The notes: a model not told the origin generated them from the letters alone. A DNA stretch of 64,000 nt from an uncultured Clostridia bacterium (GCA_934154445.1 CAKPGC010000001.1:93414-157413), one strand, 5' to 3'; counted from the stretch's first letter, positions 3,411 through 42,883 are shown. Program-made: numbers and translations.

Positions 3411-3519
3411 ATATAAACTTTAATATTTATTTTTATACTACCACAATTTTATAATTTTGTCCATAATTAGATACAATAATTTTAAGGGATTAAAAGTTAT
3501 TTCTCTCAATCCCTTAAGA

Positions 3520-4884: not shown

Positions 4885-5508
4885 CTATATAATCTCCTCT
4901 CCTAACGCATACACATCAAATTGATATTTTTTAATTTTTTCTGAATCTTTTGTGTCTTGAATATCCGTAGCTTCTTCATTTTTCTTATCTTCATAATTCC
5001 AATACCATTTTATTGTAATATTTATATTTTCATCTTTATTTATACATCCTACCAACCTTCTAGATAATTCTTCTAAAGTATTCGTCTCTTCTAATATTTG
5101 ATTATTTTTCAAAGCCATAAATTTTAAATTTTTTGGTTTATCATTTATACTATGAAATTCAATTCTATATTTCAAATTTTGGTTTGAATATAATAAAATA
5201 TTGAAGCTTCCACTTGTACCTGGTGCAATTTTTTCATATATAAGTGTATTCTTGTCTATTGTATCTACTAAATTTAATGACTTGAAATCCAAATTTTTAT
5301 AACTTATTTTAAAGTTATATATCTTTTCATTTTTGTTATTTTCTATATTATTTGTTTGAGATATTCCATTTGAAAATATTTTTATAAATAAAAAATCATC
5401 AAATTTATCTATATTCATTGAATTTTTTGAGAAAAATATTATTATGAATAAAATTATTAGAATTAAAATCAATATTAATTTAAAAATTATCTTTTTCTTA
5501 CTTTTCAT
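4885..5508 (-). CDS. secreted ~200-aa protein, paralog of the 6198..6791 product; possible TasA/camelysin (peptidase M73)-like fibre subunit
   Basis: N-terminal TM anchor. Mature region aligns with the 197-aa paralog (KIAPGTSGSFNILL vs KIAPGTEGNFQIKL; KPKNLKF vs KPTNLKF; KWYWNYE vs DWYWKYE; YQFDVYALG vs YTFDVIVSG). AGGTGA RBS. Confidence 0.5.
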   Translation of the reverse strand: MKSKKKIIFKLILILILIILFIIIFFSKNSMNIDKFDDFLFIKIFSNGISQTNNIENNKNEKIYNFKISYKNLDFKSLNLVDTIDKNTLIYEKIAPGTSGSFNILLYSNQNLKYRIEFHSINDKPKNLKFMALKNNQILEETNTLEELSRRLVGCINKDENINITIKWYWNYEDKKNEEATDIQDTKDSEKIKKYQFDVYALGEEII

Positions 5509-6908: not shown

Positions 6909-6937
6909 ATTATACTTCCAAACAAGCAGTTTGTCAA
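6909..6937 (-). promoter_or_regulatory. sigma-A type promoter (TTGACA-N17-TATAAT) for the secreted-protein operon; Spo0A-box-like TGTCGAA just upstream
   Basis: Minus strand reads TTATTGACAAACTGCTTGTTTGGAAGTATAATC. A 0A-box-like TGTCGAA lies at 6947-6953, flanked by a GTTTGTCA...TGACAAAC inverted repeat. Confidence 0.5.
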
Positions 6938-6988
6938 TAAAAACATTTCGACAAAAAATGACAAACCACTTGTTTTATAAACTATTTT

Positions 6989-30797: not shown

Positions 30798-30842
30798 TAA
30801 AAAGTTGTCAAAAAGGGATATCCCTATTGACAACTTTTTATT
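30798..30842. repeat. long imperfect palindrome (family member) forming a bidirectional terminator; overlaps the last proS codons
   Basis: AAAAGTTGTCAAAAAGGGATATCCCTATTGACAACTTTTT; on the minus strand ...AAAAGTTGTCAATAG encodes K-S-C-Q-stop of proS. Confidence 0.65.
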
Positions 30843-32092
30843 AATTCATCAATTGAAAATACTTCTTTTTCTCCTGTTTTTGAGTTCTCTAATTCGTATT
30901 TTCCTTCTTCAAACTTCTTGCCCATTACAATCATAAAAGGTGTTCCTAAGGCATATACATCATTAATTCTATTTCCCATATTTAAATTTTCTCTATCATC
31001 AATAATTACTTTAATACCACTATCTTGAAGTTTATTATATAATTCAAATGCTTTTTCCTTATTTTCTTCACTATATATAATTTGTACTTTATAAGGTGCA
31101 ATATTTTTTGGTATTGCAAACCCCTTAATTTTTTCATTTTTAATAATAATATTATTTTCTATTATAGTTGCAATTATTCTTCCTAGTCCTATTCCATAAC
31201 ATCCCATATAATAAGGTTTACTTTGTCCGTTTTCGTCTTGATATGTTAATCCCATTGCTTCAGAATATTTTGTTCCTAATTCAAAATTATTTCCTAATTC
31301 AACAGAATTATATTCTTTCATATCTTCTAGACTTAAACCTTGTAATCTATCTATAAATGTTTCTTTATCTTCAAAGTCTAGGACTTCTTTATTAATTCCA
31401 ACATTTTTTTCTTCATTATATAAAATGATATCTTCACCTAGTTTTGTAATGGCTTGAAATTCTTCAGATACTCTTCCACCCATTGTTCCGCCGTCACTTA
31501 CTACTGGTATAATATTAATACCTATTCTTTTAAATATGTTCATATACACATCATGCATTTTTTCAAATGTTTTGTGCATATCTTCTTGTGTTTTATCAAA
31601 TGAATATGCATCCATCATAACAAATGTACGTGGTCTAAATAAATATCCTCTTGCTCTAATTTCCTTTCTGAACTTTTCTCCAATTTGATAATATGTTGCT
31701 GGCAAATTTTTATATGATAATAATCTATTTGCACCAAATATTGTAGCACATTCCTCTGCTGTTGGAGCTAATCCATAATCTCCTAAATTATTACTCATAT
31801 TAAACATTATATCAGCTTCTTTTGTATATACATCCCATCTTCCAGATTGCTCCCATATTTTTTTAGGCTGTAATTTTGGGAACTCTGCTTGTATACAATC
31901 TGCCTTGTCTAATTCATCAATAATTATGTTTTCAACTATTCTTTCAATTTTGGTCCATATATTTCCATATCCAAAAATCCCACTTTCAAATTGATACAAT
32001 TCTCCTAATTTCATTAATATATCTTGTCCTGAATAATTTTTATCTATATCATTAAAGTTAATTTTCTTTGGGTTTAATTTACTTAATTTCAT
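30824..32092 (-). CDS. proS: proline--tRNA ligase, short form lacking the editing (INS) domain
   Basis: Class II aaRS motifs align with ProRS (LQPKKIWEQSGRWDVY, LAPTAEE, SYKNLPATYYQIGEKFRKEIRARGYLFRPRTFVMMDAYSF), but only 422 aa. Confidence 0.75.
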   Translation of the reverse strand: MKLSKLNPKKINFNDIDKNYSGQDILMKLGELYQFESGIFGYGNIWTKIERIVENIIIDELDKADCIQAEFPKLQPKKIWEQSGRWDVYTKEADIMFNMSNNLGDYGLAPTAEECATIFGANRLLSYKNLPATYYQIGEKFRKEIRARGYLFRPRTFVMMDAYSFDKTQEDMHKTFEKMHDVYMNIFKRIGINIIPVVSDGGTMGGRVSEEFQAITKLGEDIILYNEEKNVGINKEVLDFEDKETFIDRLQGLSLEDMKEYNSVELGNNFELGTKYSEAMGLTYQDENGQSKPYYMGCYGIGLGRIIATIIENNIIIKNEKIKGFAIPKNIAPYKVQIIYSEENKEKAFELYNKLQDSGIKVIIDDRENLNMGNRINDVYALGTPFMIVMGKKFEEGKYELENSKTGEKEVFSIDELIKSCQ

Positions 32093-34941: not shown

Positions 34942-34981
34942 AAAGAGGGATTAAGAGTCCAAGACTCATAATCCCTCAAAA

Positions 34982-40040: not shown

Positions 40041-40116
40041 CTCCTAAAAAGTTGTCGAAAGGGACACTCCCTTTTTTGACAATATATTTTTTGTTGTCAA
40101 AAGGACATACCTTTTG
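40041..40116. repeat. two tandem copies of the TTGTCAA...TTGACAA palindrome family between the T-box terminator and the aspS SD
   Basis: AAAAGTTGTCGAAAGGGACACTCCCTTTTTTGACAA and TTGTTGTCAAAAGGACATACCTTTTGACAAGTTTTT. Confidence 0.6.
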
Positions 40117-40340
40117 ACAAGTTTTTGCGATGAACATCAAAAAACGTCCACTGCAATATGCAGGGACGAAATAATTTCCGCGGTACCACCCAGCTTGAAA
40201 ACACTTTTAAAAGCATTTTCCACTTTATAAAATTGCTCCAATATGTTTCACATATTAGGTTGACCTCAAAGGGTTTTCAGCCAATGACCCTTATTCTCTA
40301 AAAGTAACTTCTAATTGCTTTGTATTGTACGAACGCAAAT
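40113..40340 (-). promoter_or_regulatory. T-box riboswitch leader of the aspS-gatCAB operon
   Basis: Minus strand has the T-box consensus AGCTGGGTGGTACCGCGG, then terminator hairpin GTCCCTGCATATTGCAGTGGAC + U-tract. Confidence 0.8.
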
Positions 40341-40520
40341 ATATTTATTATTATGTTACTAATTTTAGCACCTTATTCATTGATTTGTCAAGAAATATTC
40401 AGAATTTTTTTATAATTTTCATTAAATATAATTATTTAATATACATTATATAATTTTCATATAAAAAAAGAGACTATTATTTAGCCTCTTTATATGAATT
40501 CATATATTTATATTCACAAA

Positions 40521-42571: not shown

Positions 42572-42883
42572 CTTTCCTCCTATGTCAATACTTGTCAAAA
42601 GGTTCGTACCTATTGACATTTTTCCTTATTCATTACTATTTCGCTACTTTGTTTATTATGCTAATAAATGCATTGCTTTTTAATCATTATAATTTTTATT
42701 TAATTTTTAATCAATACTTTTTACAAATTTTTCAAAAATCATTGACAAATATACTTTTTTGTAATAAAATATTTAAGCATTATGTTAAAATATGATTTAA
42801 ATATAAAACTTCTCCCCGGTAGTTTTAGTTTAAATTTCATATAAATAAAAAATATAATATAAAATAGGAGGGTAATTATTACC

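What the first reader, a model, noticed from the sequence alone, without database searches (positions are those of the whole stretch)
30798..30842. Family of long imperfect palindromes (TTGTCAAWAGG-N3-7-CCTWTTGACAA) reused at 7 or more intergenic sites, abutting SDs or overlapping stop codons
Copies seen:
- 11884-11918, splB terminator overlapping its stop;
- 12921-12956, directly 5' of the splB SD;
- 30798-30842, bidirectional terminator whose arm encodes K-S-C-Q-stop of proS;
- 40041-40081 and 40083-40116, tandem, between the T-box terminator and the aspS SD;
- 42583-42625, abutting the GGAGG of the spoVB-like gene;
- 62299-62336, overlapping the oxidoreductase stop with its arm TTGACAGACAGGAG forming the yigZ SD;
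- a degenerate copy at 6925-6975 over the secreted-operon promoter.
Arms are conserved (AAAGTTGTCAA / TTGACAACTTT); spacers vary. The right arm contains TTGACA (a -35 hexamer), and some copies contain the Spo0A-box TGTCGAA. Possible roles are a REP-like mobile palindrome, a shared terminator/RNA-stability element, or an operator for a global regulator.
Basis: seen in the sequence. Interest (0 to 1): 0.6.

Follow-up and report, generated by a model that had tools for sequence, protein, structure and literature searches.

The report
Decayed REP-like palindromes in gut Clostridia
The repeated palindromes are real: they are worn-down copies of a small selfish DNA hairpin (a REP-like element). In sister species of this uncultured gut Clostridium, intact copies of it flank a single-copy tyrosine transposase gene, so this is a known kind of element in a group where it is little described.

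Summary
Seven sites in the window belong to one palindrome family: 11880-11918, 12922-12961, 30800-30838, 40047-40087, 40089-40125, 42587-42624 and 62302-62340. The eighth site (6925-6975) is not a member; it is a conserved sigma-70 promoter.

In related uncultured gut Clostridia MAGs near Clostridium sp. CAG:470, the family has a sharply conserved 27-nt master sequence, TGTCAAAAAGGGGCGTCCCTATTGACA. Copies in inverted orientation flank a single-copy 245-aa HUH/Y1 transposase gene. Its best structural match is E. coli TnpA_REP (4ER8). The gene sits at a fixed dnaB-[gene]-tilS-ftsH position. This is a REPtron/TIRtron arrangement.

A covariance model built only from sister-species copies recovers six window sites at E<1e-3. 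The seventh is supported by orthology.

The window copies sit at positions orthologous to canonical copies. They keep the AT-rich arms and still fold, but have lost the GC-rich centre, including the central CG. One copy is lineage-specific.

Filled versus empty sites place insertions at A-run/T-run junctions. This explains the terminator-like look. The elements lie next to stops and SDs, and some are read as codons (ProS ...KSCQ*, TilS insert SCQKGASLLT).

Verdict: a new member of the REP/RAYT kind, probably relics in this genome. Terminator or stabiliser roles are untested.

The parts
30800..30838 (+). REP-like copy. It reads in the F orientation on the + strand, so in the R orientation in proS mRNA sense. 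Core 30806-30832 is TGTCAAAAAGGGATATCCCTATTGACA. It supplies the last four codons and the stop of proS (AAA AGT TGT CAA TAG = KSCQ*). It is flanked by A5 and T5.
   Evidence: R1 scores it at 46.3 bits, E=2.9e-10. The RNA hairpin folds at -21.7 kcal/mol. The orthologous copy in L127 has the canonical centre GGGACGCCCC. ProS in CAG:470, L010 and L012 ends NRLAK/KKF/ARLKK with unrelated terminators.
62302..62340 (+). REP-like copy lying inside the 3' end of the FAD-oxidoreductase ORF. The tail ...LSIGMPFFDRQE* lies beyond the end of the TIGR00275 model. The copy runs into the yigZ SD and start.
   Evidence: R1 scores it at 31.7 bits, E=3.9e-6. NCBIfam coverage ends at residue 422 of 434. The copy is present in six strains of the species, with one polymorphic base. 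It is also found in L001 at 32.7 bits.
40089..40125 (+). First copy (R in mRNA sense) of a tandem R-F dimer in the aspS leader, just after the T-box terminator.
   Evidence: R1 scores it at 28.5 bits, E=3e-5. It is orthologous to the canonical copy TGTCAAAAAAGGGCGTCCCTTTTGACA (L119 + strand; GGGACGCCC in aspS mRNA sense) at L119 2247-2273. It is absent from the otherwise conserved leader of CAG:470. The T-box itself is at 40159-40342(-).
40047..40087 (-). Second copy (F in mRNA sense) of the aspS-leader dimer. It ends 5 nt before the aspS SD (AGGAGG).
   Evidence: R1 scores it at 28.3 bits, E=3.5e-5. It is orthologous to L119 2210-2236, which in aspS mRNA sense reads TGTCAAAAAGGGGCGTCCCTTTTGACA. 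The hairpin folds at -11.7 kcal/mol.
42587..42624 (+). Copy in the 5' region of the spoVB-like gene, directly upstream of its SD. The adjacent TGTCAATA at 42583-42590 looks like the remnant arm of a lost partner copy.
   Evidence: R1 scores it at 27.2 bits, E=7e-5. An orthologous decayed copy, CTGTCATAGGGAAACTCCTTTTTGACAA, is in L010 (21 bits). In L012 a different repeat occupies the site.
11880..11918 (-). Copy directly after the splB stop, followed by U5 in mRNA sense. It is lineage-specific.
   Evidence: R1 scores it at 23.3 bits, E=8.6e-4. It is absent at the orthologous site in L085, L112 and L132. Where the window has AAAA[copy]TTTTT, L132 reads AAAATTTT.
12922..12961 (-). The most decayed copy (TGTCAAAAAGAGACATGCCTTTTTGATA in mRNA sense). 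It abuts the splB SD (GGAGGT).
   Evidence: R1 gives only 16.4 bits, E=0.076. However, it is positionally orthologous to canonical or near-canonical copies in L085, L112 and L132, within conserved flanks.

Best explanation
The palindromes are copies of a lineage-specific REP-like element. It is a 27-nt imperfect palindrome, 31-39 nt with its variable foot. It belongs to a REP/RAYT-type system of small-genome, 27% G+C uncultured gut Clostridia.

Shown:
- Sister species carry a master sequence, TGTCAAAAAGGGGCGTCCCTATTGACA.
- Its copies, in inverted orientation, flank a single-copy Y1 (HUH...Y..NP) transposase gene between dnaB and tilS.
- Copies also occur as R-spacer-F inverted dimers between genes.

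Inferred from the characterised E. coli TnpA_REP and IS200/IS605 enzymes: the transposase recognises the hairpin on single-stranded DNA, cuts it and rejoins it. This spreads copies, apparently into A-run/T-run junctions.

Consequences of the compact genome:
- Tolerated insertions end up squeezed between a stop codon and the next SD.
- Some insertions are read as codons.
- Insertion into AnTn makes each copy look like a bidirectional terminator.

In the window's species the seven copies are old, mostly orthologous ones. Their GC-rich centre, including the central CG, has decayed under AT-biased and CpG-depleting mutation. The AT-rich arms survive.

Inferred, not shown: the family is no longer renewed in this genome, for example because the cognate transposase was lost. 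Any effect on termination, mRNA stability or translation is a by-product and was not tested.
For: - Enrichment: 9 pattern hits against 0.3 expected.
- An independent model from other species recovers the window sites.
- The genome-contig scan returned many low-GC Clostridia MAG loci with near-identical 27-mers. The exact master 27-mer occurs in 16 fetched loci, from at least 8 different MAG assemblies. The consensus of 73 copies has the central CG in 68-69 of them, although all these genomes have CpG observed/expected of 0.28-0.46.
- The transposase: 245 aa with HVHIL and YIHNNPV motifs. It scores 51.5 bits on Pfam Y1_Tnp, above the cut-off of 23. Its best NCBIfam match is REP-associated tyrosine transposase, with the full-length model matched at 74.6 bits. 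The AlphaFold model (pLDDT 81) has 4ER8, TnpA_REP bound to a REP hairpin, as its top PDB match at E=4e-7.
- REPtron anatomy: R - gene - F F in L083, L097, L133-135 and L140, always at rplI-dnaB-[gene]-tilS-ftsH.
- Distant homologues (48-50% identity) are flanked by related inverted repeats that share a GGGACG-type core.
- R-F dimers and orientation bias: before starts, 16 F to 3 R; after stops, 19 R to 8 F.
- Foot pairs covary: U-A 22, G-C 8, C-G 3 and so on.
- Orthology of window copies with canonical copies.
- Presence and absence: 11886 is unique to the window lineage. The aspS-leader pair is absent in CAG:470. The proS-end copy is absent in three relatives. The in-frame tilS copy is in 22 of 120 TilS clusters.
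- No two window copies have the same centre, which fits a population that is not replicating.
- Literature: loss of a RAYT is followed by decay of its REPIN population (RAREFAN preprint 10.1101/2022.05.22.493013).
Against: - No transposase gene lies in the window (tblastn). I could not reach the dnaB-tilS locus of the window's own species, so both the link and the 'relic' status rest on sister species.
- The element lacks the unpaired GT[AG]G or CGTC tag of classical REPs.
- The transposase scores just under NCBIfam's REP_Tyr_transpos cut-off (74.6 against 80).
In UMGS1516, an unbiased 20.7 kb around the transposase holds only the three flanking copies.
- The window arms are better conserved than the centre. 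This could also mean continued selection on the arms, or recognition of them.
- Mobility itself was not observed.
Confidence: 0.8

Rival explanations
1. The hairpins are kept mainly because the host uses them as RNA elements. A copy after the stop would cap the upstream cistron as a terminator or 3' stabiliser. A copy against the SD would form a 5' stem-loop that stabilises the downstream cistron or tunes its translation. The transposon origin would be secondary.
For: - All seven window copies still fold at -9 to -22 kcal/mol despite sequence decay.
- Copies persist at orthologous positions across species with about 14% coding divergence.
- Their positions are stereotyped: 13-29 nt before start codons, and within 12 nt of or overlapping stop codons.
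- 30806 and 11886 are followed by U5.
- REPs are reported to stabilise mRNA and terminate transcription (background in PMC6006769).
Against: - Close relatives do without them at the same sites: the CAG:470 aspS leader, the proS ends, and the splB end.
- Selection for structure alone would allow compensatory drift. It would not preserve a 27-nt master sequence, loop included, across species.
- The orientation rule follows from a self-complementary R-F dimer and needs no RNA function.
- The mRNA-sense strand of the aspS-leader copies is not terminator-like by the scan.
- In a compact genome, the stop-to-SD spacer is simply the only place where an insertion is tolerated.
Confidence: 0.2
2. The family is still active in the window's genome, with a diverged transposase that reads the arms (TGTCAA/TTGACA) and ignores the centre. 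On this view the window copies form a living subfamily and are not relics.
For: - The arms are nearly intact in six of seven copies, while the centres differ.
- The 11886 copy is a gain specific to the window lineage.
- Subfamilies with altered, compensating arms exist elsewhere, e.g. GGTCAA..TTGACC in L142.
Against: - There is no master sequence: all seven centres differ.
- Most differences from the canonical centre replace G or C with A or T, at the only GC-rich part, as expected from mutation bias in a 27% G+C, CpG-depleted genome.
- A second palindrome family (GGGATT..AATCCC) is also decayed in the window, while it is canonical in relatives.
- The closest relative with a long contig (L012/L142 species) has no transposase at dnaB-tilS.
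Confidence: 0.15
3. The palindromes are double-stranded DNA operators for a global regulator, such as Spo0A (TGTCGAA) or a dimeric HTH protein. Alternatively, they are promoter elements using TTGACA as a -35 box.
For: - The sequence is nearly palindromic through its centre, as dimer operators are.
- The right arm is TTGACA.
- The transposase has a C-terminal helical domain with weak HTH_60, HTH_23 and Sigma70_r4 similarity.
Against: - Copies lie after stops, inside ORFs and directly against SDs, with no room for a -10 box. They also sit between convergent gene ends.
- The loop length varies among window copies.
- The conserved bulge asymmetry and the covarying foot pairs fit a hairpin, not a duplex site.
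- The only TGTCGAA in a member is a single-base change from the canonical orthologue.
- The one true promoter with 0A boxes (6909-6960) is not a member.
Confidence: 0.04
4. The sites are ordinary, unrelated intrinsic terminators that look alike by chance or by composition.
For: The genome is AT-rich. Some copies have A-run/T-run flanks.
Against: - 9 hits against 0.3 expected.
- E-values reach 3e-10 with a model trained on other species.
- There is a dozen other hairpins with unrelated stems in the same window.
- Five of the seven copies are not at transcript ends.
Confidence: 0.01

Closest known systems
REP/BIME elements with TnpA_REP (RAYT) REPtrons, and REPIN-RAYT systems of Enterobacteria and Pseudomonas (Nunvar 2010; Bertels & Rainey 2011; Ton-Hoang 2012; Messing 2012, PDB 4ER8; as summarised in PMC6006769 and PMC5581495)
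   Same: - Short imperfect palindromes dispersed between genes.
- Inverted dimers.
- A single-copy, syntenic, vertically inherited Y1 transposase gene flanked by copies in inverted orientation.
- The Y---NP motif, and 4ER8 as the best structural match.
- Some copies are intragenic and in frame.
- The repeat population appears decayed in the window's genome, as is reported when a RAYT is lost. Loss of the transposase in this genome is inferred, not shown.
   Different: - There is no unpaired GT[AG]G guide tetranucleotide at the foot.
- The host is a Clostridia lineage. The REP surveys I read list no Firmicutes family (zero mentions in PMC3733652).
- The transposase is longer (245 aa) and has a C-terminal helical, HTH-like domain.
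- The copy number seems moderate, not hundreds. It was not measured genome-wide.
TIRtrons/TIRYT (Di Nocera et al. 2013, PMC3733652), equivalent to TnpA_Y1 subclass 2.1 and RAYT group 1 (Quentin et al. 2018, PMC6006769; Bertels et al. 2017, PMC5581495)
   Same: - A RAYT-like protein with a C-terminal HTH-type extension.
- Flanking inverted repeats, some of them self-complementary, that form moderately abundant repeat families organised as dimers.
- RAYT group 1 is reported to occur in Clostridia.
- Homologues at 48-50% identity here are flanked by plain TIRs rather than hairpins.
   Different: - The 27-mer does not carry the GGGGWSAS motif; its centre is GGGGCGTC. That motif is found in the second family, GGGATTGGGGGACAGGTC.
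- Quentin et al. found no REP-like hairpins next to subclass 2.1 genes, whereas here the flanking repeats are clear hairpins.
- Subclass membership of this protein was inferred, not tested against reference sequences.
IS200/IS605 family (IS608, ISDra2) subterminal hairpins and their miniature derivatives
   Same: - The HUH/Y1 fold: 2VIC, 2XQC and others are the next structural matches.
- Imperfect hairpins flank the transposase gene and are recognised as single-stranded DNA.
- Insertion is next to a short specific sequence.
   Different: - The gene here is single-copy and fixed at one chromosomal slot across species, unlike a multi-copy IS.
- The repeats spread without the gene.
- NCBIfam IS200 scores only about 20 bits, against 55 required.
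Rickettsia palindromic elements (RPE) and other intragenic REPs
   Same: Copies are inserted in frame and translated. The 27 nt make 9 codons: the TilS N-terminal insert SCQKGASLLT, the ProS C-terminus KSCQ*, and the oxidoreductase tail.
   Different: The copies are much shorter than RPEs (about 100-150 bp). They sit only at the extreme ends of ORFs. No CGTC tag is present at the terminus.

Membership tests
REP/REPIN-RAYT system (REPtron) | A short (about 20-40 nt) imperfect palindrome present in multiple dispersed, mostly extragenic copies. | tested here: met
   Seven copies lie in the 64-kb window. There are 73 canonical 27-mers in 55 loci of related MAGs. Genome-wide numbers are unknown because the scan was truncated.
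REP/REPIN-RAYT system (REPtron) | A conserved unpaired GT[AG]G tetranucleotide at the 5' foot of the hairpin (or CGTC in the second superfamily). | tested here: not met
   The consensus is aaaagtTGTCAAAAAGGGGCGTCCCTATTGACAa.... TGTC pairs with GACA. CGTC occurs only in the centre. No GTAG or GTGG lies at the foot.
REP/REPIN-RAYT system (REPtron) | Copies organised as inverted dimers (BIME/REPIN). | tested here: met
   R-spacer-F dimers occur with 8-80-nt spacers in L027, L083, L092, L104, L105, L119, L127 and L128, and in the window at 40047-40125. The orientation bias fits this arrangement.
REP/REPIN-RAYT system (REPtron) | A single-copy Y1 transposase gene (HUH and Y---NP motifs) flanked by the repeats in inverted orientation. 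| tested here: met
   This is met in the sister species L083, L097, L133-135 and L140/141. No such gene is in the window. The window species' dnaB-tilS locus could not be reached.
REP/REPIN-RAYT system (REPtron) | The protein belongs to the RAYT clade and not to IS200 transposases. | tested here: inconclusive
   NCBIfam REP_Tyr_transpos scores 74.6 bits, against a cut-off of 80, with the full model matched. IS200 scores about 20 bits against 55. phmmer against 4ER8 gives E=0.23. Foldseek's top hit is 4ER8 at E=4e-7, ahead of IS608 and ISDra2.
REP/REPIN-RAYT system (REPtron) | The transposase binds and cleaves the repeat, and the repeats are mobile. | not testable with these tools
   Only indirect evidence exists: filled and empty orthologous sites.
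TIRtron/TIRYT (TnpA_Y1 subclass 2.1) | A C-terminal HTH-type extension on the RAYT-like core. | tested here: inconclusive
   AlphaFold predicts a helical domain at 176-244, after a disordered linker. Pfam HTH_60, HTH_23 and Sigma70_r4 all score below their cut-offs. Two homologues carry precomputed Sigma70_r4 or HTH_11 hits.
TIRtron/TIRYT (TnpA_Y1 subclass 2.1) | Flanking terminal inverted repeats that share GGGGWSAS. | tested here: not met
   The centre of the 27-mer is GGGGCGTC or GGGACGTC. The motif is present in the separate GGGATT..AATCCC family, as GGGGACAG.
Rho-independent terminators | A stable hairpin followed by a U-run on the transcribed strand, at the end of a transcription unit. 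| tested here: inconclusive
   30806 and 11886 fit, with -21.7 and -12.1 kcal/mol followed by U5. 12921, 40095, 42593 and 62308 have no U-run, or lie in a 5' leader or an ORF. The scan calls the aspS-leader copies terminator-like only on the antisense strand. No transcript data exist.
Transcription-factor operator / promoter element (Spo0A box, -35) | Located in promoter regions at a fixed distance from -35/-10 boxes, with a duplex recognition sequence. | tested here: not met
   Members lie at stops, at SDs and inside ORFs. The only promoter-associated site is not a member.
MITE | A 70-300-bp element with terminal inverted repeats and target-site duplication. | tested here: not met
   The unit is 27-39 nt. 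R-F dimers of 60-130 nt resemble MITEs, but no consistent target duplication was seen. The three filled/empty comparisons point to insertion at A-run/T-run junctions.

The most novel reading that the evidence does not exclude
This is a long-lived REPIN-RAYT-type partnership in Firmicutes. A vertically inherited, single-copy HTH-bearing Y1 enzyme, fixed between dnaB and tilS, would maintain a hairpin family that the host uses as intercistronic punctuation, with the R copy capping the upstream cistron and the F copy forming a 5' stem-loop against the SD. If so, it would give the large RAYT subclass 2.1 (TIRYT) its first clear hairpin partner and a tractable functional model. The window's genome would be a natural 'enzyme-lost' control.
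Probability: 0.15. Interest if true: 0.7.

Novelty: new member of a known kind. Interest (0 to 1): 0.45.

Why it matters
REP/RAYT systems are described almost entirely from Proteobacteria and a few other phyla. The REP surveys I could read list no Firmicutes family, and they report no REP-like hairpins for the RAYT subclass that occurs in Clostridia.

Here a clear hairpin family, its transposase, its fixed chromosomal slot and its decay series are laid out across a set of abundant but uncultured human-gut Clostridia.

Practical consequences:
- These copies remodel gene ends: the ProS, TilS and oxidoreductase termini.
- They sit in a T-box leader and against SDs.
- They probably contribute to assembly breaks: many contigs carrying the transposase are under 5 kb.
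- Annotation pipelines can mistake them for terminators, promoters or operators.

For this window itself the copies are most likely fossils.

Tried and rejected
- Rfam found no family for either palindrome type. I searched the window at gathering threshold, the aspS region at E-value threshold, and 14 loci.
- The viral-contig scan gave only 3 unrelated hits, so this is not a phage signature.
- The genome contigs pattern also pulled in a 24-nt perfect palindrome, TGTCAAAAGGTRYACCTTTTGACA, from Oscillospiraceae, Lachnospiraceae and others. I suspected a wider superfamily. However, those sites are low-copy, sit next to small serine recombinases and surface-protein genes, and have no Y1 gene nearby. 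The shared arms were imposed by my search pattern. I rejected them as related.
- 6925-6975, 17464-17501 and 29068-29089 were tested as degenerate members and rejected.
- I tried to locate the dnaB-tilS locus of the window's own species, by a TilS homologue search and by matching longest-contig lengths with the AspS list. Only the L012 species could be matched. The window does not contain dnaB, tilS or ftsH.
- The L012-type repeat GTCCC-W4-GGGAC was searched in the window and not found.
- I considered CsrA-site, DNA-uptake-sequence and CRISPR-like readings from the sequence alone. I dropped them once the transposase association appeared.
- A CpG-specific explanation for the decay, such as a methylase peculiar to this species, was rejected. 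All relatives are equally CpG-depleted.

Full report
**Observation**

The window is 27% G+C and most of its genes lie on the minus strand. AspS and Spo0A look-ups place it in uncultured human-gut Clostridia MAGs near 'Clostridium sp. CAG:470'.

The palindrome at 30798-30842 reads TAAAAAGTTGTCAAAAAGGGATATCCCTATTGACAACTTTTTA. The loose pattern TGTCRA...TYGACA gives 9 hits against 0.30 expected by shuffling.

The same window holds a dozen other stable hairpins with unrelated stems.

- splB, flanked by dfr and a dCMP-deaminase gene
- proS
- a T-box-aspS-gatCAB operon
- a spoVB-like gene
- an FAD oxidoreductase followed by yigZ and spo0A.

**The family outside the window**

About half of the loci are low-GC Clostridia MAGs. 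They carry a sharply conserved 27-mer, TGTCAAAAAGGGGCGTCCCTATTGACA, or the variant TGTCAAAAAAGGGCGTCCCTTTTGACA.

Across 73 copies the arms, the G-run, the central CG (68-69 of 73) and TCCC are almost invariant. A conserved asymmetry (a bulged A, and a T opposite a G) defines an orientation: F as written, R for the complement. The exact master 27-mer occurs in 16 fetched loci, from at least 8 different MAG assemblies.

The first two positions outside the core are variable but complementary: U-A 22, G-C 8, U-G 4, C-G 3 at the first pair. The overall covariation score was matched or exceeded by only 3 of 500 shuffles. This is as expected for a hairpin.

Copies typically come as an R-spacer-F pair filling an intergenic spacer. 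R lies within a few bases of the upstream stop, or overlaps it. F ends 13-29 nt before the next start codon, against the SD.

**The associated gene**

I scanned the ORFs of those loci for HUH and tyrosine motifs. This found a 245-aa protein (HVHIL ... YIHNNPV) in L083 and L097.
- It scores above Pfam's Y1_Tnp cut-off (51.5 against 23).
- Its best NCBIfam model is 'REP-associated tyrosine transposase'. The full-length model is matched at 74.6 bits, just under the cut-off of 80. IS200 scores about 20 bits.
- An AlphaFold model (pLDDT 81) has E. coli TnpA_REP bound to a REP hairpin (4ER8) as its top PDB match. IS608 and ISDra2 transposases follow.
- Residues 176-244 form a separate helical domain with weak HTH similarity.

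The gene is single-copy and sits at rplI-dnaB-[gene]-tilS-ftsH in every species where I found it, down to 50% protein identity.

In L083, L097 and L133-135, an R copy follows the dnaB stop, then come the gene's own promoter and ORF. An F copy lies 6 nt after its stop. A second F copy lies in frame inside codons 6-14 of tilS. In L140 the R copy and the in-frame tilS copy are present, with an extra ORF between the gene and tilS. This is the REPtron layout.

More distant homologues are flanked by related inverted repeats: TTGCCAATGGTTCCGGG... in L138 and GGGTCAGTGGGGACGTTCCTTCTGACAC in L136.

Other relatives lack the gene:
- In the L012/L142 species, dnaB and tilS overlap.
- In L146 the slot holds only a transposase-less pair of inverted repeats of a second family.

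**The window copies relative to the canonical family**

A covariance model built from 48 sister-species copies finds six window sites at E from 3e-10 to 9e-4, and 12922-12961 at E=0.076.

Synteny with fetched loci shows orthology:
- The splB-upstream copy corresponds to canonical or near-canonical copies in UMGS1423, UMGS1516 and Clostridium sp. 28_17, within conserved flanks.
- The proS-end copy corresponds to a canonical copy in CAKOUO.
- The aspS-leader pair corresponds to a canonical R-F pair in UMGS1516.

In each case the window copy differs mainly in the GC-rich centre. In F orientation the canonical GGGGCGTCCC or GGGCGTCCC becomes GGGATATCCC, GGGCATTCC or GGACATACC, and further forms occur. 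All seven centres differ from one another.

All these genomes are CpG-depleted, with observed/expected of 0.28-0.46. Retention of the central CG in the sister species therefore implies renewal or selection there. Its loss in the window implies neither. This is the pattern reported when a RAYT is lost. The loss itself is inferred, because I could not reach that locus in the window's species.

The copies still fold at -9 to -22 kcal/mol.

**Gain, loss and target**
- The 11886 copy is absent at the orthologous site in three species. L132 reads AAAATTTT where the window has AAAA[copy]TTTTT.
- ProS ends ...DELIKSCQ* where the element is present (window and CAKOUO). It ends ...NRLAK*...KKF* or ...ARLKK*, followed by unrelated terminators, where the element is absent.
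- TilS starts MKEK|VLETIKKYN in 98 clusters and MEKK-SCQKGASLLTE-VLETIKKYN in 22.
- The CAG:470 aspS leader is about 90% identical through the T-box but lacks the pair.

The three filled/empty comparisons each place the element at an A-run/T-run junction. This would explain the AAAAGT...ACTTTT extension and the look of a bidirectional terminator. With only three cases, this remains an inference.

**Mechanism**

Shown: the family, its conservation, its dimer form, its association with a RAYT-type gene, its orthology and decay in the window, and its presence/absence polymorphism.

Inferred from the characterised E. coli TnpA_REP and IS608 systems: recognition of the hairpin on single-stranded DNA and cleavage-ligation by the Y1 enzyme.

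Inferred from genome compactness: proximity to stops and SDs reflects where insertions are tolerated.

Untested: any effect as a terminator, stabiliser or translational modulator. Only 30806 and 11886 have a U-run in mRNA sense. The consensus scan flags the aspS-leader copies as terminator-like only on the antisense strand.

**Comparison with known systems**

Di Nocera et al. (PMC3733652) sort REPs by GTAG or CGTC tags and list no Firmicutes. They also describe TIRtrons: RAYT-like genes flanked by inverted repeats, some self-complementary, sharing GGGGWSAS.

Quentin et al. (PMC6006769) equate these with subclass 2.1, which has a C-terminal HTH. They state that no REP-like hairpins were found next to its genes. 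Bertels et al. (PMC5581495) note that the corresponding RAYT group 1 occurs in Clostridia.

The present family lacks both tags and the GGGGWSAS motif but has every architectural feature of a REPtron. I therefore file it as a new member of the REP/RAYT (TIRtron-like) kind. Subclass assignment is left open.

**Limits**
- No genome-wide copy number is available, because the scan was truncated.
- No transposase was seen in the window's species.
- No expression data exist.
- The literature search was limited to the open-access library.

Noticed in passing
window 3486-3513 and 34947-34975; L007 15355-15419; L010 3166-3262, 15152-15180, 18672-18700; L133 40-106, 7628-7654, 16650-16676; L146 7396-7422, 9792-9818 and about 9950-9985: There is a second conserved-arm palindrome family, GGGATT...AATCCC. 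Its canonical form is GGGATTGGGGGACGGGTCTCAAATCCC, which contains the TIRYT-type GGGGWSAS motif and a GGGACG core. The window has 2 copies against 0.02 expected, both with decayed centres. Canonical copies occur in CAG:470, UMGS1516 and the L010 species. In L146 a transposase-less inverted pair fills the dnaB-tilS slot.
   Followed up: partly
window 6909-6960 (- strand): A perfect sigma-70 promoter, TTGACA-17-TATAAT, is preceded by tandem Spo0A-box-like repeats (TTGTCAT / TGTCGAA; TTGTCGA-N4-TTGTCGAAA in UMGS1516). It lies upstream of five co-directional ORFs (about 6791 down to 1300) with no NCBIfam match. spo0A itself is at 60676-61494.
   Followed up: partly
window 40159-40342 (- strand): The aspS T-box leader is real (E=1.8e-12) but scores 60.5 bits, below Rfam's gathering score of 93. 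It was therefore missed in the default scan.
   Followed up: yes
L018, L021, L022, L025 (511-692), L038, L045, L047, L055 (1455-1636), L070, L100, L107, L125 and others: The 24-nt perfect palindrome TGTCAAAAGGTRYACCTTTTGACA occurs in diverse higher-GC Clostridia and in a Phascolarctobacterium. It is embedded in longer stems with variable complementary outer parts. It sometimes comes in pairs about 110-135 nt apart. It sits next to small serine recombinases (6 loci) and large surface proteins (7 loci). It looks like an invertible-promoter (inverton) repeat and is unrelated to the window family.
   Followed up: partly
L012 9920-9995 and 7300-7420; L010/L011 9850-9995; L007 9945-10000: The slot between the aspS T-box terminator and the SD holds a different palindromic repeat in each relative. 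L012 has AGAACCGTCCCTTTTGGGACA twice. L010/11 have a long inverted repeat of about 150 nt, GTGTCCTTTTAGGGACGTTTCTGTTTGGGACATTT.... CAG:470 has only end remnants. L012 also has a (GATGTTA)n-type long inverted repeat upstream of its spoVB-like gene.
   Followed up: no
L142 4100-4138 and 4619-4657: The L012/L142 species lacks the transposase at dnaB-tilS. It carries a subfamily with compensating arm changes (GGTCAA...TTGACC). One copy keeps the canonical GGGCGTCCC centre, directly before the dnaB SD.
   Followed up: partly
L138 3845-3870 and about 5010-5035: In this species the 50%-identical transposase homologue is flanked by plain 23-nt inverted repeats, TTGCCAATGGTTCCGGGTTAAAA. The downstream repeat lies inside the tilS coding sequence.
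   Followed up: no
window 30824-32092 (- strand): ProS is only 422 aa. It matches the bacterial-type proS models in two separated stretches, which suggests it lacks the editing insertion domain.
   Followed up: no
whole window and all related loci: There is strong CpG depletion (observed/expected 0.28-0.46) with GpC excess (1.2-1.4) throughout this clade.
   Followed up: partly
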